Of a stretch of 64,000 bases of DNA, positions 11,314-64,000 are shown one piece after another; the stretch's first letter is position 1; each line of letters opens with the position of its first letter. The notes under the pieces were generated by a model, which was not told the DNA's origin, did not search any database, and was given only the letters and a program-made list of their open reading frames with translations. The position numbers and the translations under genes are program-made. Source of the DNA: Mytilus trossulus (lineage: Eukaryota); contig NC_086385.1 of assembly GCF_036588685.1 (NCBI RefSeq), forward strand, positions 45,717,216 to 45,781,215, in the 5' to 3' direction.

Positions 11314-11771
11314 GGAATATACTGATAGGGTTATGATAAACTTTACCAGACGACAGCCATGACACTTCTTCAATGAGTAGATTCCTCCGATATCAGAGCA
11401 CCTGTGTCATACGTTATGAATTCATGACAAATCGCCACACTGTCAAATCGCCCCACACTTAAGTCCTGAAAAAAATCAAGTCCTATACAGTATAATACGG
11501 TTTACCTGTGTGTTTCCTTTAAACAATCAATATCTGAAGACCTTCACATGTCTAAAAACACACATCAATTTCATTGGTTGGCTTTTTTAAATCACGTATT
11601 GACCTTTTTAAAATCTGATAAAATAGTCATTTCCATCAAAAGTGTTTAATCAAAGAGAGGTAACTCAAGTTTATTTTGTTTGCCCACATGTAACTCGATT
11701 CAAGCCCTTTCCGTGTCCGATTTTCTCCCACACGCTCTAACATGTGGGCTAACCCGAATAATTCAGTCGTT

Positions 11772-14700
11772 ATAAGATAAGATATGATAACTTTATTATC
11801 ACTAACACATTGACAATAAATGGTTATGGCAACACATTAAAGACTAAATACAATAACATATATACAATGAAGGAGTGACAGTGGATAATTATGAGAGATA
11901 TATTTAAAAAAAAAAATGAGAAGCATATACATTATTACAGAAATCAAGTACCTTTTAATAATGAGTTTCTCACCAACAAGCATTCATTCAAATAGTTGAC
12001 AACAATTTTTAATATTGTTTGGGAATTATTATTTAGAATTGATATAAGCAAGTTATATGACAAATGTATGATAAGGAAGGAAATTTGCTGTTCAATAGAA
12101 CATTATATTTAATTTTTTAATAAGGTTATCTCTCACATATTTATAGGAGGAACATTTTAAAAGAAAGTGAAGTTCATCTTCAATGTCTCCATTGTTGCAG
12201 CAAAGACATACCCTACTCTGCTTTGGTATTTTTAGATATCGCCCTCTTTCAATAGATAAAGTATGAGCGCTTTTAACCTCAATTTACATAATGTTGATCT
12301 ATCACTTTTGGATTTGCATTGATCAACATACGATGGTTTTTTATTTGGTTTATAAAGTATATTAAAAAAAATCATTTTTTTATTTTGATTGATGTCAGTT
12401 TCTTGCTTTTGGAAGGCTATATCATTGATTCTTTCTTGAATGGGTTTTAAATACACCTTAATATCAATAGGATTTAGATTAATAAAATGAAATCCAAGTC
12501 TTGAAATGAGATTTTTCATATTTATTATCCAAGAGTTATTTTTTTCAGTTGCTTTATAAATTTTTAGGGCTAGTGAATTATTTGATTCAAGTATATGAAG
12601 CCAATATTTTATTGCTGAAAATTCTATTTTGGTATACATAGGCAATCTATTTAGCTCGGCTAAACATGCAGCATTTGATGCTTTACAATGTATTCCTAGA
12701 ATTTCTTTAATGAATTTATACTGCAAGTGTTCAAAGGGATCTGAATCCCTGTGCTGTTTGCCTATTCCCCATACTTCACTACCGTATAGAGCAATAGGCA
12801 CAACTAGGTAGTCAAATAATTTTTCTAATAGCTTGCATTGGTTATTAAGTCCAATTGGTTTTTTTATTTTAAAAAGTGCTTTTCTACCCTTTTCAACAAG
12901 CAATGAGCTGCACAGATTTAGATTTCCTGTGTGCTGCCAGTGTCATGCCAAGGTAGCAGTATGATTTGACAGTTTCCAGGAATTCGTTATTATATTTAAA
13001 AAAAATATTATGGGTTTTTCCATTTGAGTTAATATAATGACTTTTGATTTGTTTATGTTGACTTCTAGTTTCCAGCATTTAAAAAAATCACTAAGAACAT
13101 TTAAAGCTGTTTGTAGTCCCTTTTCAGAATTTGATAATAAAACTATATCATCTGCAAATAAAAGGGAATTTATTGTTGTATCTCCAATTACAATGGGATC
13201 TGTATTAGCATCTTGGAGACTTTTTACCAAATTATTTATGTAAAGATTAAATAATAAAGGACTAAGAACATCTCTCTGTTTAACGCCACGGTTGGAGATA
13301 AATTCTTCACTGAGACCATTTTGGAATTTAATTCTACATGTAGTATCGTCATACATAGAATGAATTATATTAAAAAGTTTACAGGGTAATTTAAGTTCTA
13401 AAAGGATATAAAATAATCCATTTCTCCAAACTGTGTCAAAGGCCTTTCTGAGATCAACAAAGGCAGCAAGCACCTTCTGTTTCTTATTTTTCTTTTGTTC
13501 TATAATAGATTTCAAGGTGAATATTTGATCTGAGGTACGGGATTTTTCTTTAAATCCAATTTGGTTTTCACTAATAATGTTGTTGTTCATTCATGAATTT
13601 TGTAATTCTAATATATATAATTTTATTTAATAATTTTCCAAGATTGGAGGTTATAGAAATACCTCTGTAATTTGAAGGGTCTAGCTTATTGCCCTTTTTG
13701 TGTATTAATGAAATGAAACTTTCATTCCATATCTTGGGAAATGTTCCTTCTTTGAAGATTAGGTTAAATAATTTAGTTAAAGGGTCAACTAGTACAGGTA
13801 AACCATATTTAATCATTTCATTTGAAATCAAGTCCTTTGCACTGGATTTGCCATTTTTTAAGGTTTTAGAGACTTTGATTATTTCATCTGATGTTATTGG
13901 TTGGTTATAGGACATATTTATATTATTGTTTTTTAGTGCAGTTATTAGCTCATCTAATTTTTTAAGGATAGTTTGGTGAAATTTATTGTCCTTTGGTTGA
14001 GCTTCACAAGAATTTAAATTTTTGAAGAAGTTATAGAATGTTTGCTCGTCTAGTTTTTCAGTAGTATTATTTTCTGATGCTCGTTTCAATTTATTAAGTA
14101 AGTCCCAGAAGGATTTTGGGTCATTTTTGATATTATTGGACAGATCTGAACATATTTTATTCTTGTATAATTTTTCTTCTTGTTTACATTTTCGCCTCAA
14201 TTTTGAGCGATAAGAGTAGTATTCTTTTCTGTAAGCTCCATTAAATGGAAATTTATTAATAAGAAAGGCATAGTGCTTAACAGTTTTATATAAGTCATCA
14301 CATGAACCTGAAAACCAGGGTTTTCTTTTTGGTTTATTTGTTTGCTTTTTAAGGCGCCCTTTGATAAATTTGACCGAAGCCAAAGCTGTTTCTTGAAGAA
14401 TTGTGTTAAAGTCATTAACAGCCTCATTACAATTTAAGTATTTTCTACTGAGAAATTTTCTGAGTTTGGTACTAGTATTTTTATCCTGTATAAGGGTAGA
14501 GTAACGATTTATAGCTTCTGAATCCCATACAAATTTACCTGGGAGTGGTTTTAAATATGCTTGTTGGGTTTTAGTATTGTCATAAAAAGATGTTAACAAG
14601 CTACAGCTTATTGCACAATGATCTGATAATGTTGTAAAGTCGTGCACAGTAAAACTATTTATGGCATAAACATGTAATAAATTTGCAGATGCAACTGCAT

Positions 14701-16705
14701 AGTCAACAACACTAGAACCATTATATTTTATACAAGTATATTTACCAAGAAGATCGCCAATTGTTCTACCATTCAAAATTCGTAGCCCATCTTCTTTACA
14801 GAGCTCTATTAATAATTTGCAACTCTTTTTTGGCCTTTTATGATCAAGACTATTTCTTGGTGTACCTATATCATATACATAGCTATCATCCTCAGCATGA
14901 GGATAGATAGATTCATCAGAGTATACAAAGTCTGGTGTTGTGCTAGTGTAGGCATTAAAATCGCCTTGAATCAATACTTCACCATATTGACTATAGTTTT
15001 CTATATTACAGAGTAATTTTGAATACATTTCTTCAATATCTTTTGGTTGCCCAGAAGAATTTTCTGGGGAAAAATAGATAAAAGCAAGATATATATCTTT
15101 TGGAAGATTAAAAAACTTATGGTTTAGCTTTACCCACTGGATATCACTATGTTCATTTGGAAGCTTAGTCAAACCTTTGATCAAAGAAAGTTTGGCATAT
15201 ATTGCAATTCCACCAGAATTACGCCTTGCTTTTTATGTTTAGATCGACTACTGTTGCAAATAAGTGCATAATCTGGTATATTCAAAGTAGTTCCACTGTC
15301 ACTCCATGTTTCAATTAAATTAAATAGATGCATATTAGATATAATATTCAAAAAAGCAGGGTCCTTAATTTTGTCTTGATTTAAGCCCTGGATATTCCAT
15401 AAACCAATTTTCAGGTTATTCGTGGTCATTGTTAAAGAATCAATGATGGTAAGATGACGGGAAGTTTTGTAATAAATTGGATTTCTTAAGGCATGATTGC
15501 ATGTGTTTAGATGTTGGTTTGGTTATATGTAAAGGATCTAAATGAAGATATTAAATACCTTAATGAATGTCCTATGGTATAGGTACCTTTTAATAATAGT
15601 ATAAGAAAAAAAAAAAAAAAAAAAAAAAAGTTAACAATTTACTTTAAAGGTGCATTAAGAAGTCAATTATTGACTTTTTTGGTGTAAAGAGGGATAACTC
15701 TAATTCATAAGTAAGCTTGAATAAAAAGATTGATAAAAAGATTGATAAAAAGATACATAAAAATAAAATGAAGATATAATAACTGTTGATGATGCACAGG
15801 TAATGACTAGAATCAATGTACACAGGATATATGTAAATGATATCAAGATACATAATGGTACAAATATAATGTTATATTGATATGAAACACAATTCATATT
15901 TTCAATGTAAAATGAATAACAACCAAAAAATAATAATAAACAAAGTAAAAAAAAACCAAACCAATATACAAAAAAAATAAAATAATACAGTACTGACAGT
16001 TAACAATGAGAATCAGAATGGTTCATTAATAAAGAAAATATTTATTAGAAGTCCATTCTCTGCCTAGCTGATGGCATGTTCCAAGGTCCAAAAAGCCAAG
16101 GGTTGAAGTATGGCATGTTCAAGTTGAAGGGTGGACAAGGTGGATTTCCTAACGGTTGTTGGTATTGATTATTGTTATAATTTGGGTTTTCAATTGGTGG
16201 TTGTTATTGACTATTTCCGAGCGATTGTTGGTATTGACTATTGTTATAATTTGGGTTTTCCTTTGGTGGTTTGTATTGACTTTTTCCAAGCGATTGTTGG
16301 TATTGACTATTGTTATAATTTGGGTTTTCAATTGGTGGTTGGTATTGACCATTGTTATTGTATGGATTCCTCAGTAGTGGTTGGCCTGTATTATTGTTAT
16401 AGTATGGATTTCTGTGCGGCGGTGAGTATTGATTGTTGTTATTAATGTCAGCCTTGTTTTGTCTGTAGTTCTTTGTTTCGCCGTGATACACACTAGGTTT
16501 GTTACTAGTCCTTGGTGGTGTGTTAGCTTGCGTGAATGGGATCTTCATCTGGCGCTTCAAAAATTTCACAATTGCAGGTATACCTCTGCTGTCATTGAGG
16601 TGTACATAGTCGAAGAACATATCGTCTGTGGGTATAAAACCTTTGAGTATGTTGAAAGATGGATAGTCATGAGCTACGGATATTATCCTGTCGTTTGCTT
16701 CATCA
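11772..16705 (-). mobile_element. Non-LTR retrotransposon (RTE-X/CR1-group-like), copy 1, truncated in ORF1
   Basis: APE endonuclease motifs (WNIQGL, ETW, GDFNA, SVVDY, SDH), RT motifs (FVDLRKAFDTV, GVKQ, FADD), C-terminal CCHC-type region, TAAGA/TGATA microsatellite tail at ~11772. Confidence 0.92.
11960..15429 (-). pseudogene. LINE ORF2 (endonuclease + reverse transcriptase), frameshifted, copy 1
   Basis: Split across ORFs 15181-15429, 13571-15184, 12943-13590, 12893-13078 and 12232-12903 in different frames; 3' end approximate. Confidence 0.9.
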
Positions 16706-16979
16706 GTCAGAGCTCTGACATAAACAAGTCAGAATAAACTGACTTCTATAAGTCAGATATAATTTGATGTAAGTGTTATCTCCCTTCTTGCACTTAACAG
16801 AATATGACTTGTACGGGTCAGTTTTTGTCAGACTTTAGTTTATCATAAAATGACTTAAGCAGGTCAGCTTTTGCACATTAAAATGTGACTTTATATCTCA
16901 ATATTTTAACAAGATTTATGCCCCTTTTAGATGCATTTTGACCTACAGAAGTCAATTTTGTTCTGACTTGAAGCAGTCA
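16706..16979. promoter_or_regulatory. Subterminal array of TGAC-N8-GTCA palindromes (putative transposase/accessory-protein binding sites) after a 14-bp terminal palindrome
   Basis: GTCAGAGCTCTGAC at 16706-16719; perfect TGAC-N8-GTCA at 16716, 16740, 16805, 16851, 16939, 16964. Confidence 0.75.
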
Positions 16980-17734
16980 ATACTACAACTTTAAAAATAT
17001 ACATTTATATATTAAATAAACCGTGATTTCTTGTATATTCACCATTTGTTTACTGAATATTGTAAAATAAATAAAGAAACAAACAAACAAACAACAGTTA
17101 AGAATAAAATGTTTATTCACTGACAAGAAATAACTGTACATTTAAAAACATGTAAATGAATATAAAAACATGTAAATGAATCTAAAAAAAATACATTTAA
17201 TTATAACCATATCTGTTAAAAGTTTTTGTATAAAAGAATGTGTAAAGTAAGTGTAACAACAGCTGTGCCAAAAGTGTACTTTAAATTATTTGATTACCAG
17301 TATTTAGGAACATGTTTCTTTTGTCTTAAATATGTGATACTTAAAAATACAAAGCAAAATTAAAAAGTAAAAACACAAAAATACTGAACTCCGAGAAATA
17401 ACAAATACTCGGAGAAGGTGGCTCGGGACCGAACAATAAACACTATATATAACAACCTAATTATCCATAACATTTGTACAATCTTATCAACAAACATCCT
17501 TACGTAAATTATAAAATGGTTATGCACTTATGTTAAATGTTTTGGTACCTTAATACATATTGATAGATTATTATTTCTATTATGTAACTGAATGTATATA
17601 AGCAGTTATCAAACACAATTTCATAAAAAGGTGTATTTTTGTTAAAAAATGAATTTAGTGTGGTATATTCTATATTTGAAAATAGCATTCACATAGTTAG
17701 GAAATCCATTAAACATACATTTACATCATCACAT

Positions 17735-19735
17735 AGTGAACAAAGAAAAATAAAACATTATTGGCAGTGAGTTATAAAGTCATATCAATAAGCACTTTTT
17801 TTAAAATGTTTCTGCACCCAACTTGGCAGTGTAATTTTACAGTACCTTATCTTGACACTATTACAAAATAAGGCAAAAGTAACTGAACCCTACTTGGCAG
17901 AGTTTGAGGTCATCTTATTTAGCACTGTGCCCATCTTGGCTTTCATCATAGATATTTTAAATCACAAAAGTTGCATATAAATTTGGTGACAGTCTTTTGG
18001 GGTATTGTACAACATGTTGAAGAGTGAACAAAGAAAAATAAAACATTATTGGCAGTGAGTTATAAAGTCATATCAATAAGCACTTTTTTAAAAATGTTTC
18101 TGCACCCAACTTGGCAGTGTAATTTTACAGTACCTTATCTTGACACTATTACAAAATAAGGCAAAAGTAACTGAACCTTACTTGGCAGAGTTTGAGGTCA
18201 TCTTATTTAGCACTGTACCCATCTTGGCTTTCATCATAGATATTTTTAAATCACAAAAGTTGCATATAAATTGGGTGACAGTCTTTTGGGGTATTGTACA
18301 ACATGTTGAAGAGTGAACAAAGAAAAATAAAACATTATTGGCAGTGAGTTATAAAGTCATATCAATAAGCACTTTTTTTAAAATGTTTCTGCACCCAACT
18401 TGGCAGTGTAATTTTACAGTACCTTATCTTGACACTATTACAAAATAAGGCAAAAGTAACTGAACCCTACTTGGCAGAGTTTGAGGTCATCTTATTTAGC
18501 ACTGTGCCCATCTTGGCTTTCATCATAGATATTTTAAATCACAAAAGTTGCATATAAATTTGGTGACAGTCTTTTGGGGTATTGTACAACATGTTGAAGA
18601 GTGAACAAAGAAAAATAAAACATTATTGGCAGTGAGTTATAAAGTCATATCAATAAGCACTTTTTTAAAAATGTTTCTGCACCCAACTTGGCAGTGTAAT
18701 TTTACAGTACCTTATCTTGACACTATTACAAAATAAGGCAAAAGTAACTGAACCCTACTTGGCAGAGTTTGAGGTCATCTTATTTAGCACTGTACCCATC
18801 TTGGCTTTCATCATAGATATTTTTAAATCACAAAAGTTGCATATAAATTGGGTGACAGTCTTTTGGGGTATTGTACAACATGTTGAAGAGTGAACAAAGA
18901 AAAATAAAACATTATTGGCAGTGAGTTATAAAGTCATATCAATAAGCACTTTTTTAAAAATGTTTCTGCACCCAACTTGGCAGTGTAATTTTACAGTACC
19001 TTATCTTGACACTATTACAAAATAAGGCAAAAGTAACTGAACCCTACTTGGCAGAGTTTGAGGTCATCTTATTTAGCACTGTACCCATCTTGGCTTTCAT
19101 CATAGATATTTTTAAATCACAAAAGTTGCATATAAATTGGGTGACAGTCTTTTGGGGTATTGTACAACATGTTGAAGAGTGAACAAAGAAAAATAAAACA
19201 TTATTGGCAGTGAGTTATAAAGTCATATCAATAAGCACTTTTTTAAAAATGTTTCTGCACCCAACTTGGCAGTGTAATTTTACAGTACCTTATCTTGACA
19301 CTATTACAAAATAAGGCAAAAGTAACTGAACCCTACTTGGCAGAGTTTGAGGTCATCTTATTTAGCACTGTACCCATCTTGGCTTTCATCATAGATATTT
19401 TTAAATCACAAAAGTTGCATATAAATTGGGTGACAGTCTTTTGGGGTATTGTACAACATGTTGAAGAGTGAACAAAGAAAAATAAAACATTATTGGCAGT
19501 GAGTTATAAAGTCATATCAATAAGCACTTTTTTAAAAATGTTTCTGCACCCAACTTGGCAGTGTAATTTTACAGTACCTTATCTTGACACTATTACAAAA
19601 TAAGGCAAAAGTAACTGAACCCTACTTGGCAGAGTTTGAGGTCATCTTATTTAGCACTGTACCCATCTTGGCTTTCATCATAGATATTTTTAAATCACAA
19701 AAGTTGCATATAAATTGGGTGAAAGTCTTTTGGGG
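17735..19735. repeat. Tandem satellite, 288/289-bp unit, ~6.9 copies
   Basis: Unit start agtgaacaaagaaaaataaaacattattggcag at 17735, 18023, 18312, 18600, 18889, 19178, 19467; units nearly identical. Confidence 0.98.
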
Positions 19736-19807
19736 GACTGAGGGACTGACAGACAGACAAATGTACAACGGTACACCATAATAGGTCCCCTTTTAAAAAA
19801 AACAAGC

Positions 19808-21122
19808 TTTTTCAAAAACAAAACTATAAAAAGCACCAATAAAGACTAGATCCAACTCTTTAAAACTTAACATATACATGATATATACAAAAACTAACAT
19901 ATTTACAAACAAAACAAAAACATTTAATTTGACTTGTCAAATATAGAAATGCATATTTGAAGGTGGAGGTATGGCAAGGTCATAAAAAAAAATATTCATT
20001 TCATTGTCATTACAACATAGAAAACACCTATGAAATTGACGAATAAAACCAAAACTACACATGTTTAGAACATGATAGTTTACCAAAACAACTTTACCAC
20101 AAAAATATCTATATTGTTATGGTTTTGGCTCTTAAATATCAAAGACACTATTTCTTAAGATCAACTAATTTTTTTTTTTAATAACCTCTATTTCAAAAAG
20201 TTTCAAGACGGACACCTTCCTATTCCTTCTTTACCAAACAAAAAACAAAAAAAGCATAATAACTTTGAAAAATACGAAAGATGCATTTTTTTTATTTTGA
20301 TAATTCCTGTTCCTTTTTTCAAATTAAAGAGTTAAAAAAGCCACATCATCATACCTTCTCCTTCCCAAAAACTAAACATAATATCAGAGTCAGAATACGA
20401 CATCTCATCACATTCAAAACACAAACTAAAACCAGAGGAGAAAAAAATTGATCATACATTTTTCAAAAACAAAACTATAAAAAGCACCAATAAAGACTAG
20501 ATCCAACTCTTTAAAACTTAACATATACATGATATATACAAAAAGTAACATATATACAAACAAAACAAAAACATTTAATTTGACTTGTCAAATATAGAAA
20601 TCCATATTTGAAGGTGGAGGTATGGCAAGGTCCTTCATTTATCAATGATATTACTTTTTCTATATACTTTATCTAGACACTATAAATTAAATAAAAATAT
20701 TCATTTCATTGTAATTATGACATAGAAAACACCTATGAAATTGACGAATAAAACCCAAACTACATATGTTTAGAACATAATATTTTACGAAAACAACTTT
20801 ACAACAAAATATCTACCGGTATATTGTTATGGTTTTGGCTCTTAAATATCAAAGACACTATTTCTTAAGATCAACTAATTTGGTTGTCTTTTTTTTTTAA
20901 TAAACTCTATTTCAAAAAGTTTCAAGACGGACACCTTCCTATTCTTTCTTAACCCAAAAAAAACAAGAAAGGGTATATAACTTTGAAAAATACGAAAGAT
21001 GTATTTTTTTTATTTTGATAATTCCTGTTCCTTTTTTCAAATTAAAGAGTTAAAAAAGCCACATCATCATACCTTCTCCTTCCCAAAAACTAAACATAAT
21101 ATCAGAGTCAGAATACGACATC
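19808..21122. repeat. Tandem duplication of ~650 bp
   Basis: ttttcaaaaacaaaactataaaaagcacc...gatcatacattttt at ~19808 and ~20460, with several indels. Confidence 0.92.
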
Positions 21123-21837
21123 TCATCACATTCAAAACACAAACTAAAACCAGAGGAGAAAAAAATTGATCATACATTTTTCTAAATATCAAAAGATAAA
21201 AAAAATCTTATGAAAATTTGGCACATATGCTAGCACCATGACAATACTTCACATCTTCCCAGGAAAAATAATGCACTCATTCAGACTAAGGCTATAATAA
21301 AAAAAAATCATTCTCATCCTGTTTTAGCCAAGTTTATAGTAAAACATTGGTTAGTTTTAATATCAATTTCATTTTCAGAATGAATCACACTTGGAAATTA
21401 ACAAAATAAAAAAAACAATAACTTTAAATGTCTCTTTAAAAATATAAGAAAAATAAAGGATTTTTTTCATTATAGCCTCAATTAATTCTAAGATTATAAA
21501 ATAAACATGATATATAAAGTAAGACATTTATAAAACATGTGAAAAGTAACTAGTAACCACTTTGTGATCAGTTCTGTAATTAAAACACTGTCAATTACTT
21601 CAATATGTTCAACTTGACCTAAAAATGACCTTGACCTTAAGGACAAACTTCCCAACCAAGAATCCACCCCACATAGAGCCTCAGGAAAAGTTGCACAACA
21701 TTCGATTACACTAGGTTTTGAAAAGAGATCTTAATTTCTTAATGTAATTTTGAATAAGTTATAATGAATAATTAATAAAATATTTGTCCAAATATAAAAT
21801 CATTTTTAATTTTCAGTCAGAATTATGAGTCACAAAT

Positions 21838-21979
21838 TGACCTCAACAAGTCTGTCATATTTTGACTTTGACAAGTCAGTATTGTACACATATTTTTTTC
21901 ATAATACACTATATGATGAGAAAATGTGTTTACAATATGGACTTGTCAGAGTCAGAATATGACCGACTTATTGAGGTCA
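21838..21979. promoter_or_regulatory. Internal cluster of TGAC-N8-GTCA-type palindromes
   Basis: Sites at 21838 (GTCT end), 21863 (perfect), 21939 (GGAC start), 21964 (CGAC start); two pairs each 25 bp apart. Confidence 0.6.
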
Positions 21980-22154
21980 ATTTGTGTTAAATAAAACTTG
22001 ATGAGGAAACTTAATTTTTCAGTTAATTATCACCTGAACTGTGACTGATAATCTTAAGTACATTTAAAAAAAAACATTTTCTTACTGGTATGTTTTATTC
22101 CGAGAGCCAGAAGGATGCAAATTTAAATGGAAATATTCAAATAAAAAATATAAG

Positions 22155-28100: not shown

Positions 28101-31100
28101 ACAAGAGTCAGACATATTGAAAGCATAGAACCAAACATGCAATTTTTTCTAAATATACCTCTAAAAATGAAAATTAATCTCATTGTGTCTCATTGTCTTT
28201 ATTCAGATTTTCTAACACATCAGTAAGCTCCCTCAAGAAATGAACAAGTTTGGCCTTTCCCTTTGTTTTAACCTCCTTCTGATACAATTGTTTGTGGTAA
28301 TCAAATTGAAAAGGATCTTCAATCTTGTCCAAACATTTTTCAATCTCATACTGGAGTTGTTTGTTAGTCATGTTACTTGTGCTAAATAGCTTCTCTCGCT
28401 CTGACGGAGTAACTGGGACAGGATGACGGAAGTTGTAATGGTCTGTCTGAATTGGATGTCCTAAAAATTCTGTTTTCATAAGGTGAATTCTTTTTCGTAC
28501 TGATAGTTTTAAAAAATCCACTAGTCCTTCATCAAGAGCCATCCCTGAAATAGATACATGGTCACCTTTTTTCCCTAAGTAATCAGTTTTCCTGAGTAAG
28601 ATCCTATATGCAATTATACCATTTTCGATTCCCAGAGAACGACTGTTACCTTTATCAGATTTAATGTTAAAGGTTGACAAAGAATGGTCTTTGATGGTTT
28701 CTAGCAGCTTGTTATTACGGCAAACAGTTAACCAAATTTTGTCTGTAGGTACACCTTTGGGGATCCATGACTTCAACTGCTTGTTCTTTTCTTCTAAAAT
28801 GAAGTCGAAATCTTCACCCAGGGACTTATTTCCACTTGTTGTGATTGATGAATATTTGTCACTTAAACTTCTTACTTCTTCTGGCATCATAAGGTCTTGA
28901 ATGGTGTCAAAAATTTCTATAACTTGATATTTGGGATGTGATCTTCCATGAAACAGTTCTTTTGTCATGTATTTGGCACTCTTAAGGAGGTCAGAATTGT
29001 TTCTTCTTGTTGCCATTCTAAAATTTATTATACCTTGGGAAAATCTGCATACCTGGTCCATCATATATGTAAAATTTGAGTTTGATGGAACCCCATACTT
29101 CTCAGTGCTGTATTTCAGGAAACCTTTTGCAGTCGGGTGAACCTTTGACAACATACAGAGTCGAACAAATGGTAAAACCAACTCCTGTAATGTTCCCAGG
29201 TGAAAGATTAGTAGTAATCTCCATGTTTTGTGGTGATCTTTGCATGCCTTTGCAAATTGTTTGGCAGCATCAGACTCAAATCCCATTAGTTGACATAAGT
29301 GTTCCAAGGCAGGTGTCCAGTTTAATTCAAAGAAAGATTTCATAAGATTCATTTCATAGTGACCAGACCCTATCCTCAGATATAACCAATCAAATTCTAG
29401 CATGAATTTTCTCTCCATTTGGGGATGAAATTCCTTTGCATGACTATTATAAAGATCTGTTGACAAAAATGACTTTGCACACCCTTCAATGGCACAAACA
29501 ACAGCTTCCTCTTTCAATTTCTTTATGATAAGGTATGGTAACCCATCACAGCATACAAATGTCCAGTGGCGCTGGTTGCCACCATATCTGACAATGCCAT
29601 TTTCTTCCCCAATCTTTCTTAAAACTCTTGCAACAGTTATCATGCTGTTTGGGTTACAGAATACAGGATCACTAATAATAATTTCATGTCTTCCATCATG
29701 GTTAGACTTAACATGGTTGAATTGGGTGAACTCGCTATGCACCTCTGTGATCTCTGACTTATCGTCATTTTCATCTTCCTCAAAAATAATTAGGTAGCAG
29801 GTGTCTTGGTCTTTTACAAATGAGTCATTGGTACAATCTTTCTTTTTATTCTTGGCTGATTTCAATCCATCTTTTCTACTGCAACTTGTACAAATTAGTT
29901 TGCGCTTACCATTCAATGCTCCACAGTGTTCACATTTAATATAGTTTTCATCCTGCACATCCTTTTTAACCTGATCATCAATAAAATCTTCAAAATTTCT
30001 CTCAGTTTGCTTCTGCTCCTTCGACACAGTGTCAATGGCATGGTCAATAAAATAGTACAACTGTTCGTAATGATCTGTTTCCATTTTTGAATATCTTTCT
30101 GTGTCCTGATCAATCATTTCATTGATAAGAGATTGAAGTTTTGAAGTTTGTGTAGTATCATTCTCATTGACATTTTCAGCTATATCATCTTTTTCCATCT
30201 TGGGTAACTGTAACTTTTTTTCAGGTTTCAAGTCTGCTTTAGTTTGTAAACTTTCAGGAGATTGCAATTCCATAAAGGCTTTGTTAGTAATTATGGATAT
30301 TGCAATTTTGTTTTTTGGCTTTATTGACCATGTTTTTCCTATTACTTGTTCGTTGTCAAACACATTCATCAGATCACATGAAGGTAATTCTGCGGGGTGG
30401 CTACTTTGCTCCTTAACCCAATTAGTGACAGTCTTGTAATGACCTGCTGGATTGGTATTTCCAAGTAAATCCACAACTAACCTGCTCCCAGTTAATGTAT
30501 ATGCAGTTAGATTCAGCAAAAAAGAAAGAGGTGAAATTAAACTTCTATTGCATACACTGTAAGATTGTTCTACTGCTCTACAAATTGGCAAGATGTCACC
30601 CGGTCTTTCTTTCAGCTTATGGAGAGAGATGTCAAGGTTACCAAGTCCCATTATGTAACCTATTAAGGGTTCATATCTGTTGTGGATCCATTTTAAAACA
30701 TCAAAATTTGCCACGGCATGGGGGTCCTTGTAAACATTTGAAAAGTTACTTGAATCCTCAGATATAGGTTTATGCTGCTTTTCCCAATACAGTTGCATAA
30801 CAGAGATTCTTCTTTCAGAGATAAAATGTTCAAAAATTCATTAAAAAAAACCTGTTTTTGGTTATCTTCCATCTTTAACAATGCATCTTTCATGTATTCT
30901 ATCAAACTGTTTAACTGTGAATATTCAGTAGCTAAGGGTGTAGTACTTTTTTGACTTTGGTCGTCCTCAAAGTTACTTTTAAATTCAGTATTCATGGGTG
31001 GGTATGTACTCTGAGAAGCATCATCATCATCATTGGTCCTCTTTCTCTTTTTAGGCCTCCCCCGAACTTGATCAGTTTTAGAGCACACTTCACAACCTAT

Positions 31101-32146
31101 GGTATGAGGTGGGAAATAAACCTTTGGCTTGGTCAATTTCAGTTCATTGGAGTTTGACAAGCTCTCCCCTTTTGTTTCCCTATATCTATATAATAACCTT
31201 GAGTGCCTAAGGCAAACAAATGGAGGGTATGTTTCGTCATTTTCCTCTTTAACATCAATTCCGTATATGGCAATTATTTCGGAAGCGTAAAGAACTTTTT
31301 GGTACTTTTTCTTAGAATCTCTAATAAATTCATTACAAAGGCGACATACAGTTTGTAGCTTTGATATGTGTTCCCGGCAATCAGAGATTTCACTCATGAT
31401 GAAGTAAGTTGTAACATTTATGATCTTTTCGATTGTATCAAGAGGAGGATAAAAACAAAAGAAAGCAAGGTTTTAACCATCAGCTTTTCTCTGAAAATAA
31501 AGGCCATGAAACTTGTACATGTGTTCATTTGGTGTACAAATTATGTAGCTACAATATATAATCTCAAGGCATACTTGTTTGCTAGTTGGGTATAAGAAAA
31601 AAAAATTGAACCAGACAATATGCAATGAAGTACATCATAGAGATCAGCTCAATTGCTGAACATCAATGAATTCTACAATAATATATCCTTGAGTCTTGCC
31701 ATTAAAAATGATCAAAAATTAAATCCTTTAAAAAGATCATAGAGAACATGTTTACTAAGTTTGAAGTTTATTGGACTTCATAAAGACAACCTTGACCAAA
31801 ATTTAACCCAATACAGGAACAGATGAAAGAATGAACTAACTGAGAGGTGGGTGCATTGACTGCAAAACTTAATAAAAAGCTAATGCAATTAAAATACATA
31901 CATGACAGCTGATACATGATTCTTAATTACAATCTTAAATGTCATAAGACAAATCAATTAACCAGAACAAGTCCTAATTTTTTTACTTAGTCAAAAGTTA
32001 GAATAAATAATTTGACTTGATCTTTCAAAATTCTTTAAATACTATTGATGATCAGTGATTGAGAACAATAACCATATATCACTATAAACTGAAAAATGAA
32101 CTTTTCACTTACCATGTTGATCGTCACTACTGCTGTTTCCAGACAT
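22155..32146 (-). CDS. 8-exon accessory gene, 490 aa: basic N-terminal region, Ser/Thr/Asn repeat, RG-rich tract, acidic linker, C-terminal Tudor/SH3-like barrel
   Basis: Exons 32146-32113, 25919-25436, 25068-24829, 24463-24248, 23752-23717, 23215-23137, 22878-22800, 22459-22155. All introns GT-AG; phases 1,2,2,2,2,0,1 all match; 1473 nt with no internal stop (MSGNSSSDDQHVIESREEE...YENYCKKYFQ). AATAAA at 22094-22099 (minus strand). The short first exon is the least certain. Confidence 0.82.
24900..25048 (-). repeat. Coding minisatellite, 36-bp unit (NTNRPSTSNEPS) x~4
   Basis: Repeated peptide in ORF 24765-25136, within exon 3 of the accessory gene. Confidence 0.85.
28180..30798 (-). CDS. Putative DDE transposase core (Academ/DUF6589-like), 872-aa ORF
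   Basis: Intronless ORF. Motif order VFDNEQ ... VCCDGLPY ... IGSGHYEMN ... GEDFDFILEEKNK, plus a CxxC-x11-CxxC ribbon and a C2H2-like finger (CAIEGC...H...H). Family recalled from motif pattern, not searched. Confidence 0.7.
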   Translation of the reverse strand: MQLYWEKQHKPISEDSSNFSNVYKDPHAVANFDVLKWIHNRYEPLIGYIMGLGNLDISLHKLKERPGDILPICRAVEQSYSVCNRSLISPLSFLLNLTAYTLTGSRLVVDLLGNTNPAGHYKTVTNWVKEQSSHPAELPSCDLMNVFDNEQVIGKTWSIKPKNKIAISIITNKAFMELQSPESLQTKADLKPEKKLQLPKMEKDDIAENVNENDTTQTSKLQSLINEMIDQDTERYSKMETDHYEQLYYFIDHAIDTVSKEQKQTERNFEDFIDDQVKKDVQDENYIKCEHCGALNGKRKLICTSCSRKDGLKSAKNKKKDCTNDSFVKDQDTCYLIIFEEDENDDKSEITEVHSEFTQFNHVKSNHDGRHEIIISDPVFCNPNSMITVARVLRKIGEENGIVRYGGNQRHWTFVCCDGLPYLIIKKLKEEAVVCAIEGCAKSFLSTDLYNSHAKEFHPQMERKFMLEFDWLYLRIGSGHYEMNLMKSFFELNWTPALEHLCQLMGFESDAAKQFAKACKDHHKTWRLLLIFHLGTLQELVLPFVRLCMLSKVHPTAKGFLKYSTEKYGVPSNSNFTYMMDQVCRFSQGIINFRMATRRNNSDLLKSAKYMTKELFHGRSHPKYQVIEIFDTIQDLMMPEEVRSLSDKYSSITTSGNKSLGEDFDFILEEKNKQLKSWIPKGVPTDKIWLTVCRNNKLLETIKDHSLSTFNIKSDKGNSRSLGIENGIIAYRILLRKTDYLGKKGDHVSISGMALDEGLVDFLKLSVRKRIHLMKTEFLGHPIQTDHYNFRHPVPVTPSEREKLFSTSNMTNKQLQYEIEKCLDKIEDPFQFDYHKQLYQKEVKTKGKAKLVHFLRELTDVLENLNKDNETQ
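30693..31397 (-). CDS. N-terminal part of the same transposase: RAG1 N-terminal/Chapaev-like Zn-binding domain plus AT-hook/NLS
   Basis: H-x7-CRLC...YGIDV...YPPFVCLRH...FPPHTIGCEVC...RGRPKKRKR parallels RAG1 CRIC...FRIDV...HPTEFCHNC...WHPHTPSCDIC. Overlaps the 872-aa ORF; one added A in the run at 30779-30782 fuses them. Confidence 0.75.
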   Translation of the reverse strand: MSEISDCREHISKLQTVCRLCNEFIRDSKKKYQKVLYASEIIAIYGIDVKEENDETYPPFVCLRHSRLLYRYRETKGESLSNSNELKLTKPKVYFPPHTIGCEVCSKTDQVRGRPKKRKRTNDDDDASQSTYPPMNTEFKSNFEDDQSQKSTTPLATEYSQLNSLIEYMKDALLKMEDNQKQVFFNEFLNILSLKEESLLCNCIGKSSINLYLRIQVTFQMFTRTPMPWQILMF

Positions 32147-32504
32147 GTTTGATTTTTCTGAGAAAAAAAATGAGAGAAATTGTAACATATAAATAAATAA
32201 CCATTCGACTTAAAATTATTTATAAAAAAAATGTTAAATATAAAAAAACAATGGCAGATTCAGAAAAAAAGGGGGGTCTTAGTGGAAGATTTAGATCTGT
32301 ATTTCTTGACTTTTCTTTTCTTCTAAGTACACATAAATATTATGGTTTAAAAAAAATATTTTAGCAACCATTTGACCCAATTTTTTCTCAATACATTTGT
32401 TTGTACTTCTAAAATGATCAACTACAAAATGTAGCAGTGGCAGATTCTGAAAGGGGCTTCCAAAGAAGAAAAATAGATTTTATTTGAAACTTTGTTCTGC
32501 AAAC

Positions 32505-32546
32505 TGACTTAAACAAGTCAAATCATGTTCTGACTTTACAAAGTCA
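32505..32546. promoter_or_regulatory. Pair of TGAC-N8-GTCA palindromes near the right breakpoint, upstream of both genes
   Basis: TGACttaaacaaGTCA at 32505 and TGACtttacaaaGTCA at 32531. Confidence 0.65.
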
Positions 32547-32687
32547 GTAATTAACTAAATTTATTGAGATGGTCAGGCATTGTAAAATGATATTAATGAA
32601 TGTATTGAAAAGGTTATTTTAAGACACCGGAAATACATGTAAGATCCTGTAAAAATAAATAACCATTTGACTTTAAATTATTTATAA

Positions 32688-35600
32688 AAAATCTGATAAA
32701 ATAGTCATTTCCATCAAAAGTGTTTAATCAAAGAGAGGTAACTCAAGTTTATTTTGTTTGCCCACATGTAACTCGATTCAAGCCCTTTCCGTGTCCGATT
32801 TTCTCCCACACGCTCTAACATGTGGGCTAACCCGAATAATTCAGTCGTTATAAGATAAGATATGATAACTTTATTATCACTAACACATTGACAATAAATG
32901 GTTATGGCAACACATTAAAGACTAAATACAATAACATATATACAATGAAGGAGTGACAGTGGATAATTATGAGAGATATATTTAAAAAAAAAAATGAGAA
33001 GCATATACATTATTACAGAAATCAAGTACCTTTTAATAATGAGTTTCTCACCAACAAGCATTCATTCAAATAGTTGACAACAATTTTTAATATTGTTTGG
33101 GAATTATTATTTAGAATTGATATAAGCAAGTTATATGACAAATGTATGATAAGGAAGGAAATTTGCTGTTCAATAGAACATTATATTTAATTTTTTAATA
33201 AGGTTATCTCTCACATATTTATAGGAGGAACATTTTAAAAGAAAGTGAAGTTCATCTTCAATGTCTCCATTGTTGCAGCAAAGACATACCCTACTCTGCT
33301 TTGGTATTTTTAGATATCGCCCTCTTTCAATAGATAAAGTATGAGCGCTTTTAACCTCAATTTACATAATGTTGATCTATCACTTTTGGATTTGCATTGA
33401 TCAACATACGATGGTTTTTTATTTTGTTTATAAAGTATATTAAAAAAAATCATTTTTTTATTTTGATTGATGTCAGTTTCTTGCTTTTGGAAGGCTATAT
33501 CATTGATTCTTTCTTGAATGGGTTTTAAATACACCTTAATATCAATAGGATTTAGATTAATAAAATGAAATCCAAGTCTTGAAATGAGATTTTTCATATT
33601 TATTATCCAAGAGTTATTTTTTTCAGTTGCTTTATAAATTTTTAGGGCTAGTGAATTATTTGATTCAAGTATATGAAGCCAATATTTTATTGCTGAAAAT
33701 TCTATTTTGGTATACATAGGCAATCTATTTAGCTCGGCTAAACATGCAGCATTTGATGCTTTACAATGTATTCCTAGAATTTCTTTAATGAATTTATACT
33801 GCAAGTGTTCAAAGGGATCTGAATCCCTGTGCTGTTTGCCTATTCCCCATACTTCACTACCGTATAGAGCAATAGGCACAACTAGGTAGTCAAATAATTT
33901 TTCTAATAGCTTGCATTGGTTATTAAGTCCAATTGGTTTTTTTATTTTAAAAAGTGCTTTTCTACCCTTTTCAACAAGCAATGAGCTGCACAGATTTAGA
34001 TTTCCTGTGTGCTGCCAGTGTCATGCCAAGGTAGCAGTATGATTTGACAGTTTCCAGGAATTCGTTATTATATTTAAAAAAAATATTATGGGTTTTTCCA
34101 TTTGAGTTAATATAATGACTTTTGATTTGTTTATGTTGACTTCTAGTTTCCAGCATTTAAAAAAATCACTAAGAACATTTAAAGCTGTTTGTAGTCCCTT
34201 TTCAGAATTTGATAATAAAACTATATCATCTGCAAATAAAAGGGAATTTATTGTTGTATCTCCAATTACAATGGGATCTGTATTAGCATCTTGGAGACTT
34301 TTTACCAAATTATTTATGTAAAGATTAAATAATAAAGGACTAAGAACATCTCTCTGTTTAACGCCACGGTTGGAGATAAATTCTTCACTGAGACCATTTT
34401 GGAATTTAATTCTACATGTAGTATCGTCATACATAGAATGAATTATATTAAAAAGTTTACAGGGTAATTTAAGTTCTAAAAGGATATAAAATAATCCATT
34501 TCTCCAAACTGTGTCAAAGGCCTTTCTGAGATCAACAAAGGCAGCAAGCACCTTCTGTTTCTTACTTTTCTTTTGTTCTATAATAGATTTCAAGGTGAAT
34601 ATTTGATCTGAGGTACGGGATTTTTCTTTAAATCCAATTTGGTTTTCACTAATAATGTTGTTGTTCATTCATGAATTTTGTAATTCTAATATATATAATT
34701 TTATTTAATAATTTTCCAAGATTGGAGGTTATAGAAATACCTCTGTAATTTGAAGGGTCTAGCTTATTGCCCTTTTTGTGTATTAATGAAATGAAACTTT
34801 CATTCCATATCTTGGGAAATGTTCCTTCTTTGAAGATTAGGTTAAATAATTTAGTTAAAGGGTCAACTAGTACAGGTAAACCATATTTAATCATTTCATT
34901 TGAAATCAAGTCCTTTGCACTGGATTTGCCATTTTTTAAGGTTTTAGAGACTTTGATTATTTCATCTGATGTTATTGGTTGGTTATAGGACATATTTATA
35001 TTATTGTTTTTTAGTGCAGTTATTAGCTCATCTAATTTTTTAAGGATAGTTTGGTGAAATTTATTGTCCTTTGGTTGAGCTTCACAAGAATTTAAATTTT
35101 TGAAGAAGTTATAGAATGTTTGCTCGTCTAGTTTTTCAGTAGTATTATTTTCTGATGCTCGTTTCAATTTATTAAGTAAGTCCCAGAAGGATTTTGGGTC
35201 ATTTTTGATATTATTGGACAGATCTGAACATATTTTATTCTTGTATAATTTTTCTTCTTGTTTACATTTTCGCCTCAATTTTGAGCGATAAGAGTAGTAT
35301 TCTTTTCTGTAAGCTCCATTAAATGGAAATTTATTAATAAGAAAGGCATAGTGCTTAACAGTTTTATATAAGTCATCACATGAACCTGAAAACCAGGGTT
35401 TTCTTTTTGGTTTATTTGTTTGCTTTTTAAGGCGCCCTTTGATAAATTTGACCGAAGCCAAAGCTGTTTCTTTAAGAATTGTGTTAAAGTCATTAACAGC
35501 CTCATTACAATTTAAGTATTTTCTACTGAGAAATTTTCTGAGTTTGGTACTAGTATTTTTATCCTGTATAAGGGTAGAGTAACGATTTATAGCTTCTGAA

Positions 35601-37782
35601 TCCCATACAAATTTACCTGGGAGTGGTTTTAAATATGCTTGTTGGGTTTTAGTATTGTCATAAAAAGATGTTAACAAGCTACAGCTTATTGCACAATGAT
35701 CTGATAATGTTGTAAAGTCGTGCACAGTAAAACTATTTATGGCATAAACATGTAATAAATTTGCAGATGCAACTGCATAGTCAACAACACTAGAACCATT
35801 ATATTTTATACAAGTATATTTACCAAGAAGATCGCCAATTGTTCTACCATTCAAAATTCGTAGCCCATCTTCTTTACAGAGCTCTATTAATAATTTGCAA
35901 CTCTTTTTTGGCCTTTTATGATCAAGACTATTTCTTGGTGTACCTATATCATATACATAGCTATCATCCTCAGCATGAGGATAGATAGATTCATCAGAGT
36001 ATACAAAGTCTGGTGTTGTGCTAGTGTAGGCATTAAAATCGCCTTGAATCAATACTTCACCATATTGACTATAGTTTTCTATATTACAGAGTAATTTTGA
36101 ATACATTTCTTCAATATCTTTTGGTTGCCCAGAAGAATTTTCTGGGGAAAAATAGATAAAAGCAAGATATATATCTTTTGGAAGATTAAAAAACTTATGG
36201 TTTAGCTTTACCCACTGGATATCACTATGTTCATTTGGAAGCTTAGTCAAACCTTTGATCAAAGAAAGTTTGGCATATATTGCAATTCCACCAGAATTAC
36301 GCCTTGCTTTTTATGTTTAGATCGACTACTGTTGCAAATAAGTGCATAATCTGGTATATTCAAAGTAGTTCCACTGTCACTCCATGTTTCAATTAAATTA
36401 AATAGATGCATATTAGATATAATATTCAAAAAAGCAGGGTCCTTAATTTTGTCTTGATTTAAGCCCTGGATATTCCATAAACCAATTTTCAGGTTATTCG
36501 TGGTCATTGTTAAAGAATCAATGATGGTAAGATGACGGGAAGTTTTGTAATAAATTGGATTTCTTAAGGCATGATTGCATGTGTTTAGATGTTGGTTTGG
36601 TTATATGTAAAGGATCTAAATGAAGATATTAAATACCTTAATGAATGTCCTATGGTATAGGTACCTTTTAATAATAGTATAAGAAAAAAAAAAAAAAAAA
36701 AAAAAAGTTAACAATTTACTTTAAAGGTGCATTAAGAAGTCAATTATTGACTTTTTTGGTGTAAAGAGGGATAACTCTAATTCATAAGTAAGCTTGAATA
36801 AAAAGATTGATAAAAAGATTGATAAAAAGATACATAAAAATAAAATGAAGATATAATAACTGTTGATGATGCACAGGTAATGACTAGAATCAATGTACAC
36901 AGGATATATGTAAATGATATCAAGATACATAATGGTACCTATATAATGTTATATTGATATGAAACACAATTCATATTTTCAATGTAAAATGAATAACAAC
37001 CAAAAAATAATAATAAACAAAGTAAAAAAAAACCAAACCAATATACAAAAAAAATAAAATAATACAGTACTGACAGTTAACAATGAGAATCAGAATGGTT
37101 CATTAATAAAGAAAATATTTATTAGAAGTCCATTCTCTGCCTAGCTGATGGCATGTTCCAAGGTCCAAAAAGCCAAGGGTTGAAGTATGGCATGTTCAAG
37201 TTGAAGGGTGGACAAGGTGGATTTCCTAACGGTTGTTGGTATTGATTATTGTTATAATTTGGGTTTTCAATTGGTGGTTGTTATTGACTATTTCCGAGCG
37301 ATTGTTGGTATTGACTATTGTTATAATTTGGGTTTTCCTTTGGTGGTTTGTATTGACTTTTTCCAAGCGATTGTTGGTATTGACTATTGTTATAATTTGG
37401 GTTTTCAATTGGTGGTTGGTATTGACCATTGTTATTGTATGGATTCCTCAGTAGTGGTTGGCCTGTATTATTGTTATAGTATGGATTTCTGTGCGGCGGT
37501 GAGTATTGATTGTTGTTATTAATGTCAGCCTTGTTTTGTCTGTAGTTCTTTGTTTCGCCGTGATACACACTAGGTTTGTTACTAGTCCTTGGTGGTGTGT
37601 TAGCTTGCGTGAATGGGATCTTCATCTGGCGCTTCAAAAATTTCACAATTGCAGGTATACCTCTGCTGTCATTGAGGTGTACATAGTCGAAGAACATATC
37701 GTCTGTGGGTATAAAACCTTTGAGTATGTTGAAAGATGGATAGTCATGAGCTACGGATATTATCCTGTCGTTTGCTTCATCA
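32688..37782 (+). repeat. 5.1-kb direct repeat, copy 2
   Basis: Near-identical to 11610-16705; continues uninterrupted into the rest of LINE ORF1. Confidence 0.97.
33040..36507 (-). pseudogene. LINE ORF2 (endonuclease + reverse transcriptase), frameshifted, copy 2
   Basis: Same fragment pattern as copy 1 (36259-36507, 34649-36262, 34021-34668, 33971-34156, 33310-33981). Confidence 0.9.
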
Positions 37783-62790: not shown

Positions 62791-63968
62791 CAGCTCACCT
62801 GGCCCACAGGGCCAAGTGAGCTTTTCTCATCACTTGGCGTCCGTCGTCCGTCGTCGTCTTATTCGTCGTTAGCTTTTACAAAAATCTTCTCCTCTGAAAC
62901 TACTGGGCCAAATTAAACCAAACTTGGCCACAATCATTATTAGGGTATCTAGTTTTAAAAATGTGTCTGGTGACTTCCCCCCTCCCCAAAACCAACCAAC
63001 CAAAATGGCCGCCATGGCTAAAAATAGAACATAGGTGTAAAATGCAGTTTTTGGCTTATTACTCAAAAACCAAAGCATTTAGAGAAAAAATCTGACGGGG
63101 GGTTAAATTGTTTATCAGGTCAAAATCTGTCTGCCCTGAAATTTTCAGATGAATCGTAAAACCCGTTTTTGGGTTGCTGTCCCTAAATTGGTAATTTTAA
63201 GGAAATTTTACTGTTTTTGGTTCATCTTTAATATTGTTATGGATAGAGATAAACTGTAAACAGCAATAATGAAAATCTTAGTTATTTTTTACAAAAATCT
63301 TCTCCTCCGAAACTACTGGGCCAAATTAATCCAAACTTGGCAACAATCATCTTTGTGGTATCTATTTAAAAAATGTGTCACATTACCCGGCCATCCAACC
63401 AAGATGGCCGCCACGACTAAAAATAGAACATAGGAGTGAAATGTAGTTTTTGGCTTATAATCCAGAAACCAAAGCATTTAGAGCAAATCTAACACAGGGG
63501 TTGAATTTATTTATCAGGTCAAGATCTATCTGCCCTGAAATTATCAGATGAATCGGACAACCCGTTGTTGCCCCTGAATTGGTAATTTTAAGGAAATTTT
63601 GCTGTTTTTTGTTATTATCTTGAATATTTGTATAAAGAACAATAATGTTCAGCAAAGTAAGATATTCAAATAAGTCAACATGACCGAAATGGTATATTGA
63701 CCCCCGAAGGAGTTATGGTCCTTTATAGTCAATTTTTAACAATTTTCATACAATTTGTAAATTTTTATTAACATTTTCCACTGAAACTACCGGGCCAATT
63801 TCATTATAGATAGAGATAATTGCAAGCAGCAAGAATGTTCAGTTAAGTAAGATGTACAAACACATCACCATCACCTTAACACAATTTTGTCATGAATCCA
63901 TTTGCTTCCTTTGTTTAATATTCACATAGACCAAGGTGAGCGACACAGGCTCTTTAGAGTCTCTAGTT
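62791..63968 (+). mobile_element. HINE/Helentron-type element with internal duplication
   Basis: GCTCACCTGGCCC..GGGCCAAGTGAG 5' hairpin, (CGT)n, two internal units, AGGTGAGC and 3' hairpin remnant. Confidence 0.82.
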
Positions 63969-64000
63969 TTTGATACACAAAATATATTGCATTGATCATA

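What the first reader, a model, noticed from the sequence alone, without database searches (positions are those of the whole stretch)
11610..37782. 5.1-kb direct duplication bracketing a one-ended transposon
Seen: layout A-X-A. A includes ~160 bp of non-LINE flank and identical LINE frameshifts, so it is a DNA-level duplication, not two retrotranspositions. The left junction sits exactly at the element's palindromic end. The right junction lies in AAAAT microhomology inside a short internal repeat (32189-32232 versus 32652-32691). Copies differ at ~6 positions. Known: alternative or one-ended transposition at replication forks produces direct duplications with partial element inserts (maize Ac/Ds). 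Inference: either such an event, a template switch between filled and empty alleles, or a false haplotype duplication in the assembly.
Basis: partly seen in the sequence, partly recalled or inferred. Interest (0 to 1): 0.7.

Follow-up and report, generated by a model that had tools for sequence, protein, structure and literature searches.

The report
Transposon excision scar marks mussel duplication
In this mussel-like genome a 5.1-kb stretch is duplicated on either side of a DNA transposon that has lost its right end, and the second copy carries a 9-base scar where the same transposon was likely cut out, so the transposon's own enzyme likely caused the duplication, though reads across the new junction are untested and an assembly error is not excluded.

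Summary
The A-X-A layout is real in the assembly: 11610-16705 and 32688-37782 are 99.88% identical and share LINE frameshifts. Copy 2 is not an empty site: it carries a 9-bp insertion exactly where copy 1 meets the transposon. An intact ORF1 homolog (95% identical), 46 of 48 homologs and LINE contigs from three samples are shorter there. It reads as an excision footprint (5-bp target duplication plus CA|TG).

X (16704-32687) is a young DDE transposon. It has a RAG1-type N-terminal zinc finger and a DUF6589-like core whose closest solved fold is P-element transposase. Related copies continue past 32687, so the right join (4-nt microhomology) is an internal break.

Best reading (0.40): a hybrid-element-type transposition between sister chromatids with an imprecise right join. 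Rivals are microhomology duplication then excision (0.25), assembly artefact (0.22) and an inter-allelic switch (0.10). No read evidence for the new junction was obtained.

The rearrangement type is known from P elements and Ac. The element fits neither Academ nor Chapaev cleanly.

The parts
11610..16703 (+). Copy A1 of the duplication (alignment runs to 16705 because the element's first CA also fits copy 2)
11610..11771 (.). about 162 bp of non-LINE flank included in the duplication (copy in A2 at 32688-32849)
   Evidence: boundary approximate
11772..16703 (-). 3' part of a decayed LINE (endonuclease and RT frames, end of ORF1), cut off by the transposon
   Evidence: PF14529, PF00078
16699..16703 (+). 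inferred left copy of a 5-bp target-site duplication (TTCAT)
   Evidence: inference
16704..32687 (-). X: DDE DNA transposon, left terminus intact, right end missing
16704..16992 (+). left terminus (CAGTCAGAGCTCTGAC) and dense cluster of TGACTT/AAGTCA subterminal motifs; 90% identical to the end of L001
17735..19735 (.). 289-bp x 6.9 tandem array inside X
22158..25950 (-). open frames of a probable second, multi-exon gene of X (predicted; no Pfam family above cut-off)
28180..31397 (-). transposase gene, about 1070 aa: RAG1-type N-terminal zinc finger (PF12560) plus DDE core; split by a 1-bp frameshift near 30830 that contigs of two other samples appear to lack
   Evidence: (records 13, 22)
32189..32687 (+). 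right subterminal tandem unit (about 460 bp) with the second motif cluster at 32500-32550; X breaks off at the start of the next unit
   Evidence: (table 5c)
32688..32691 (+). new junction X|A2, AAAA microhomology
32688..37780 (+). Copy A2 of the duplication
37781..37789 (+). 9-bp scar (CA + TG + TTCAT), in frame in LINE ORF1 (+3 aa); read as an excision footprint
37790..39261 (-). 5' part of the LINE (rest of ORF1), present once, after A2 only

Best explanation
A DNA transposon sits between two copies of a 5.1-kb stretch, with one intact end, one broken end and a 9-base scar at the same site in the second copy; this was likely produced in one aberrant transposition, in which the enzyme would have cut opposite ends of the element on the two sister chromatids. 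Steps: (1) shown: the element lies in LINE ORF1 at 16703/16704. (2) inferred: after replication the transposase cut the left end on chromatid 1 and the right end on chromatid 2; the two host ends were rejoined and left the footprint. (3) inferred: the right end on chromatid 2 was directed to a site about 5 kb back on chromatid 1, giving flank-A-X-A-footprint-LINE 5'. (4) shown: the right terminus is missing and the join is a 4-nt microhomology inside a subterminal tandem unit; inferred: that end was resected before joining, or deleted afterwards, which immobilised the element. The reciprocal product would be a deletion of A next to a whole element.
For: The scar lies exactly at the position of the element's left junction. 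The 95%-identical intact ORF1 P0038 lacks these 3 aa; 46 of 48 homologs spanning the site, of 63 hits, are 3-4 aa shorter. LINE contigs across the site are net 9, 9 and 11 bases shorter in 3 of the 4 runs; X1 has no depth there, and the gap positions are not listed (table 8). A 7-mer repeat with a 0-4 spacer ends at 201 of 63960 window positions, 0.3%. The scar parses with no extra change as 5-bp TSD + CA|TG. The break lies in the right subterminal repeats: an X2 contig runs to 32691 and continues into another unit (table 5c), and L001 does the same. The family looks young: other samples' contigs differ by 0-17 letters per 0.5-4.8 kb. The core's best solved match is P-element transposase, Z 11.9, rmsd 5.1, 286 residues, next row 9.6; P elements are the known hybrid-element-insertion system (PMC3744419, passages). 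The window holds no N, and a 4-nt overlap is not how overlap assemblers join paths (own knowledge).
Against: A clean hybrid-element insertion predicts a precise right terminus at the new junction; there is none, so an added resection or deletion is needed. Nothing in one sequence shows that scar and duplication arose together. No listed contig bridges 32687/32688 (0 of 32 listed). The right terminus (TG) and the TSD length are inferred from one scar and one other locus. The junction falls at the start of a tandem array, where assemblies often break.
Confidence: 0.4

Rival explanations
1. Two ordinary, independent steps. A microhomology-mediated tandem duplication of about 21 kb (A plus most of X) gave flank-A-X(part)-A-X(whole)-LINE 5'; later the only complete element excised and left the footprint.
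For: Explains every junction with no imprecise transposase step: AAAA microhomology, break in a repeat-rich subterminal region, standard footprint. Zhang et al. 2013 excluded later excision in maize only because a footprint was absent (PMC3744419, section 11 read); here one is present. Fork stalling and template switching in repetitive transposon ends is proposed for animals (PMC8277862, passages).
Against: Needs a rare duplication to break by chance in the element's right subterminal region and the same element to excise later. The intermediate allele was not observed; it was not searchable here.
Confidence: 0.25
2. Assembly artefact. The individual is heterozygous for a filled and an excised allele, and the assembler wrote both haplotypes in tandem, breaking the filled one in the tandem array.
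For: The junction is at the start of an array that other copies repeat (table 5c; X1 record 6 has depth 125 against 36 for the body). Five substitutions between copies could be allelic. No bridging contig is listed. False duplications are a known problem in bivalve assemblies (search listing only).
Against: No N gap in 64 kb. The overlap is only 4 nt. It needs one animal to carry two sub-alleles of the same LINE-plus-transposon insertion, 0.1% apart. The differences are mostly substitutions, not the indels typical of noisy consensus.
Confidence: 0.22
3. Inter-allelic event. A break in the right part of X on a filled chromosome was repaired by a microhomology switch onto a homolog that already carried the excised allele.
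For: Gives the same structure and would explain the 5 substitutions as older allelic differences.
Against: Needs both alleles in one germline. A homologous repair template was available, so a 4-nt ectopic switch is unfavoured (inference).
Confidence: 0.1

Closest known systems
P-element hybrid element insertion (Drosophila)
   Same: Ends on sister chromatids recombine to give flanking duplications and deletions with the element at the breakpoint. HEI producing flanking rearrangements is cited in PMC3744419 and by title in the reference list of PMC3439972; the step-by-step geometry is recalled. The core fold here is nearest to P transposase.
   Different: The right junction is not a precise terminus. 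The inferred TSD is 5 bp, against 8 for P (recalled). The second copy comes from an excised site, not from an element-free homolog. Identity to P transposase is 8%.
Maize Ac/fAc reversed-ends tandem direct duplications (Zhang, Zuo, Peterson 2013, PMC3744419)
   Same: Two direct copies separated by a transposon, with one breakpoint exactly at a terminus.
   Different: Those need two elements and keep precise termini and a shared 8-bp TSD, and their junctions lack a footprint. Here there is one fractured element, a footprint and a microhomology join.
Academ superfamily (DUF6589-like core)
   Same: Homologs match DUF6589 (10 of 31), and the atlas's named neighbours are DUF6589 clusters (scores 0.84-0.89, leads only). 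The GxGH motif after the second Asp and the link DUF6589 = Academ are recalled, not tested. Academ is expanded in bivalves (PMC10294476).
   Different: Left end CAG, not TAG (8 of the 9 curated consensi seen start TAG). Inferred TSD 5, against 3-4 or 9-10. No helicase or XPG frame was recognised. It has an N-terminal RAG1-type zinc finger.
Chapaev / CMCT clade
   Same: Chapa/NZD-like domain. CA.. terminus and a TSD within 2-5 bp, as described for CMCT (PMC12730594). C(2)C or C(4)C and H(3)H patterns lie between the putative second Asp and the Glu.
   Different: The core aligns better to P (Z 11.9) and Hermes (9.4) than to RAG1 (6.7), and the profile meets RAG1 only at its N-terminus. A footprint retaining element ends is not what flank-hairpin enzymes such as RAG/Transib leave (recalled).

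Membership tests
Hybrid-element-insertion duplication | One duplication breakpoint exactly at a transposon terminus | tested here: met
   A1 ends at the element's left end
Hybrid-element-insertion duplication | Host ends rejoined with an excision footprint at the donor site | tested here: met
   +9 bp scar
Hybrid-element-insertion duplication | Precise opposite terminus at the new junction | tested here: not met
   32687 is internal to the element (table 5c)
Hybrid-element-insertion duplication | Reciprocal deletion product sharing a new TSD | not testable with these tools
   needs population or pedigree data
Ac-type reversed-ends duplication | Precise termini at the duplication junction and no footprint | tested here: not met
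   microhomology join and footprint present
DDE cut-and-paste transposon | RNase H-fold transposase with conserved acidic triad | tested here: met
   model pLDDT 85; top folds are transposases and integrases; DN, DGLP and DxxxEE motifs in 29, 33 and 29 of 36 homologs; catalytic roles are inferred
DDE cut-and-paste transposon | Terminal inverted repeats at both ends | tested here: inconclusive
   left end found at a second locus; right end missing here and not recovered
Academ | TAG termini | tested here: not met
   left end CAG; 8 of 9 curated bivalve Academ consensi seen (of 100) start TAG
Academ | TSD of 3-4 bp (AcademX) or 9-10 bp (AcademH) | tested here: inconclusive
   5 bp inferred from one scar; definition from PMC10045372
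Academ | Helicase or XPG nuclease encoded | tested here: inconclusive
   none recognised among frames of 70 aa or more in X; short exons or the missing right end could hide one
Academ | Transposase groups with Repbase Academ proteins | not testable with these tools
   no reference set held; the AcademH paper was not held
Chapaev / CMCT | N-terminal Chapa (RAG1 NZD-like) domain | tested here: met
   PF12560 E 6.4e-8; 15 of 31 aligned members; profile hits RAG1 residues 102-254, E 1.7e-9
Chapaev / CMCT | CA..TG termini and 2-5 bp TSD | tested here: inconclusive
   left CA supported; TG and 5 bp inferred
Chapaev / CMCT | C(2)C and H(3-4)H between second D and E, homologous to those of RAG1 | tested here: inconclusive
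   C(2)C in 16, C(4)C in 14 and H(3)H in 21 of 36 homologs; homology to the RAG1 zinc site not tested
Chapaev / CMCT | Core closer to RAG1/Transib than to other transposases | tested here: inconclusive
   RAG1 Z 6.7 against P 11.9 and Hermes 9.4; no Chapaev structure or sequence was available
False haplotype duplication | No reads across the join and halved depth per copy | not testable with these tools
   only contigs of other samples were available

The most novel reading that the evidence does not exclude
X belongs to an undescribed, recently active lineage of DDE transposons in bivalves and other animals. It joins the RAG1-type N-terminal zinc finger, so far reported only from RAG-like and Chapaev elements, to a P-like DUF6589 core; it makes 5-bp target duplications and leaves CA|TG end remnants on excision. 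This locus is then a natural record of hybrid-element transposition in an animal germline outside flies.
Probability: 0.25. Interest if true: 0.7.

Novelty: new variant of a known kind. Interest (0 to 1): 0.45.

Why it matters
If real, this is a natural example of a cut-and-paste transposon generating a kilobase-scale tandem duplication in a mollusc, with the donor-site scar preserved. It suggests a searchable signature (element end at copy 1, footprint at copy 2) for counting such events in mussels. The scar gives a first hint of the cleavage chemistry of a poorly classified transposase group. The RAG1-type zinc finger on a core that is not RAG-like bears on where that domain came from: a 2026 preprint names Chapaev as the only lineage that consistently retains it outside RAG1/RAG1L, and PMC4411706 says the Chapa domain is in no other known elements. 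The limits are plain: the duplicated DNA is a dead LINE fragment with no evident host function, the rearrangement class is known, and the junction is unverified.

Tried and rejected
Two independent retrotranspositions: rejected, because non-LINE flank and locus-private indels are shared. A 5-kb 'target-site duplication' by a complete element: rejected, because 32687 is internal and the terminal palindrome occurs once in the window. A never-filled second allele: rejected.

Footprint parses with no extra change were enumerated for starts 16701-16707. Start 16706 (7-bp TSD plus 2 palindromic bases) is disfavoured because L001 shares ATCA upstream. Start 16701 is disfavoured because L001 differs at that base. 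Neither is excluded with one locus. In one search, 15 of 63 hits did not span both anchors and were left out; 2 of 48 showed no length difference (P0069 and P0085, 36% and 26% identity).

No whole genome was held. The left-end pattern gave 1 metagenome locus, 0 in genome contigs and 0 in viral contigs. Foldseek gave no match at E<=0.001. The 885-aa frame itself hits no Pfam family. Seven long frames outside the finding hit no Pfam family, so no host gene was identified. The curated bivalve DDE library had no match to the end motif, but its long sequences are cut in the held text, so interiors were not searched; 21 of 33 supplement files were not covered. The AcademH paper was not held. Searches for DUF6589/PF20231 gave 2 listings, neither about transposons. 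Four look-ups in earlier findings were blank.
Full report
Observation. The window is 31.6% GC with no N, and its only long near-identical direct repeat outside tandem arrays is 11610-16705 vs 32688-37782: 5096 bp, 99.88%. The copies differ by five substitutions, two of them adjacent, and one poly-A length. A is about 162 bp of non-LINE flank plus the 3' 4.9 kb of a minus-strand LINE (endonuclease PF14529, RT PF00078). The LINE's 5' part follows only the second copy. Both copies break ORF2 at the same places. The 1-bp indels at 34015, 34108 and 34661 are the same in A1 and read otherwise in LINE contigs of the 3 of 4 laid runs that cover them. So both copies descend from one insertion. The nearest named transposase homologs are from Mytilus coruscus (87%) and M. 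edulis (59%), so the genome is mussel-like; the species was not determined.

The scar. At the end of A2 the sequence reads TTCAT-CA-TG-TTCAT-CAATAG, where A1 reads TTCAT-CAGTCAGAG. This adds three residues in frame to LINE ORF1. The intact 725-aa ORF1 P0038, 95% identical, reads LTIDE---ANDRII. Of 63 hits, 48 span the site; 42 are 3 aa shorter, 4 are 4 aa shorter and 2 distant ones are equal. LINE contigs crossing the site are 9 (X2), 9 (X15) and 11 (X9) bases shorter than the window over their span; the gap positions are not in the listed rows, so this supports the size only. A 7-mer direct repeat with a 0-4 base spacer ends at 201 of 63960 positions in the window. The second copy therefore once held the element and lost it: it is an excised site, not an empty one.

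The element's left end. A pattern scan of metagenome contigs gave one locus, L001. It is an internally deleted relative in another flank, 90% identical to window 16702-16992. Identity begins at ATCAGTC, so the terminus lies at or just before 16704. Of the starts 16701-16707, three parse the scar with no extra change: 16704 gives a 5-bp TSD plus CA and TG from the two ends; 16706 gives a 7-bp TSD plus two palindromic bases; 16701 gives a 2-bp TSD. L001 favours 16704. This rests on one scar and one other locus, and the right terminus was not recovered.

The right junction. The subterminal motif clusters at 16500-17100 and 32400-32700 are the densest 300-bp bins of the window. An X2 contig matches to 32691, adds 14 letters and returns to 32244, at depth 60.8, close to the element's 62-85 in that run (table 5c; the tool warns that joints at this likeness can come from related repeats). 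An X1 record over 32296-32673 has depth 125 against 36 for the body. L001 also continues past the homolog of 32688 into further units. So 32687 is an internal break at the start of a roughly 460-bp tandem unit, joined to A through AAAA. None of the 32 listed records bridges the junction; 24070 were not shown, all are contigs, and none is known to come from the assembled individual. The junction is neither confirmed nor refuted.

The element. X carries a transposase gene at 31397-28180 (minus strand), split by a 1-bp frameshift near 30830. Contigs of X2 and X15 are each one base longer over that region, so the break looks private to this copy or to the assembly. The N-terminus matches PF12560 (E 6.4e-8), and the family profile hits RAG1 residues 102-254 (E 1.7e-9). 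Of 31 aligned members, 15 match PF12560, 10 match DUF6589 and 4 match both. The predicted core (pLDDT 85) aligns best to P-element transposase (Z 11.9, rmsd 5.1, 286 residues), then an SIV integrase core (9.6) and Hermes (9.4), with RAG1 at 6.7; Foldseek found nothing significant. Further frames at 22158-25950 suggest a second, spliced gene (predicted). Twenty runs from ten studies hold the 23600-33500 stretch or a part, 18 with half its words or more. The long contigs laid on X differ by 0-17 letters per 0.5-4.8 kb, so the family is young.

Mechanism. Four histories give flank-A-X(part)|A-scar-LINE 5'. (a) Hybrid-element-type transposition between sister chromatids yields the scar and the duplication in one event, and puts the new junction at the right end; the missing terminus needs resection or a later deletion (0.40). 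(b) A microhomology tandem duplication of A plus most of X, then excision of the complete distal copy (0.25). Zhang et al. excluded later excision in maize because no footprint was present; here one is. (c) A false tandem of a filled and an excised haplotype (0.22): the break at an array favours it, while the lack of a gap, the 4-nt overlap and the need for two sub-alleles in one animal count against it. (d) A switch onto an already excised homolog (0.10). The sequence shows the junctions, the scar and the truncation; the order of events and the role of the transposase are inferred. Divergence of 0.08-0.10% suggests a recent but not same-generation origin, if the differences are not consensus errors.

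Comparison with what is known. The rearrangement works like P-element hybrid element insertion and resembles Ac reversed-ends duplications, but fails the precise-terminus test of both, so it is not filed as a member. The element is a DDE transposon that fits neither nearest group cleanly. Against Academ, its left end is CAG, whereas 8 of the 9 curated consensi seen start TAG, and the inferred TSD is 5 bp against 3-4 or 9-10. For Chapaev/CMCT it has the Chapa-like domain, a CA end and a TSD in range, but its core sits nearer P than RAG1. The identification of DUF6589 with Academ and the P-element and RAG footprint chemistry are recalled and come from no call. My ten paper searches listed no paper describing this element or such a duplication in a bivalve; Repbase and most subscription journals are not covered.

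Papers seen. PMC3744419: passages and the Discussion section. PMC10294476: passages, supplement list, searches in 12 files and in file 24; its sequence files are cut in the held text and may bear on classification. Passages only: PMC10045372, bioRxiv 10.64898/2026.01.24.700457 (supplements not seen), PMC8277862, PMC5751038, PMC4298943, PMC9587614, PMC12730594, PMC4411706, PMC10799480, PMC3439972. The AcademH paper (PMC7165386) was not held: nothing seen beyond its citation.

Verdict. A real feature of the assembly and probably of the genome (about 0.75-0.8), best read as a transposase-linked duplication marked by an excision footprint. The class is known and the duplicated DNA is inert; the added value is the footprint and an unplaced transposon lineage with a RAG1-type zinc finger. 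New variant of a known kind, interest 0.45.

Noticed in passing
window 30840-31397 (minus) and homologs P0002-P0036: A RAG1-type N-terminal zinc finger (PF12560) sits on a DUF6589-like, P-like transposase core; the literature seen names only Chapaev and RAG-like elements as carriers.
   Followed up: partly
runs X1 and X9 over window 22000-39650: Two runs of one sample differ sharply: X1 covers the transposon flat at depth 36-38 with 0 over most of the LINE, while X9 has 7-9 per contig on the transposon and 15 on the LINE 5' part. Unexplained enrichment of the element in X1.
   Followed up: no
   Followed up: no
window 17735-19735: 289-bp x 6.9 tandem array at 99% identity inside the transposon.
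   Followed up: no
window 19808-21202: Two 650-700 bp direct copies (87%) inside X, homologous to the middle of L001.
   Followed up: partly
window 21831-21986: Palindrome with 66-nt arms (88%) built from the same TGACTT/AAGTCA motif as the element's subterminal clusters.
   Followed up: no
window 4662-6120: 1.46-kb self-inverted element (84.5%) with internally palindromic 150-bp ends; MITE- or foldback-like.
   Followed up: no
window 39673-41001, 57005-57711, 62820-63971: Related 500-bp-unit repeat family, 80-93% identical, tandem at 39673-41001.
   Followed up: no
window 11682-11751 and 32760-32829: A 10-bp inverted repeat (GCCCACATGT) about 70 bp from the start of A, within the duplicated flank.
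   Followed up: no
L001 1-1335: Internally deleted relative of X with the same left end and several right subterminal units; the contig ends before the right terminus.
   Followed up: partly
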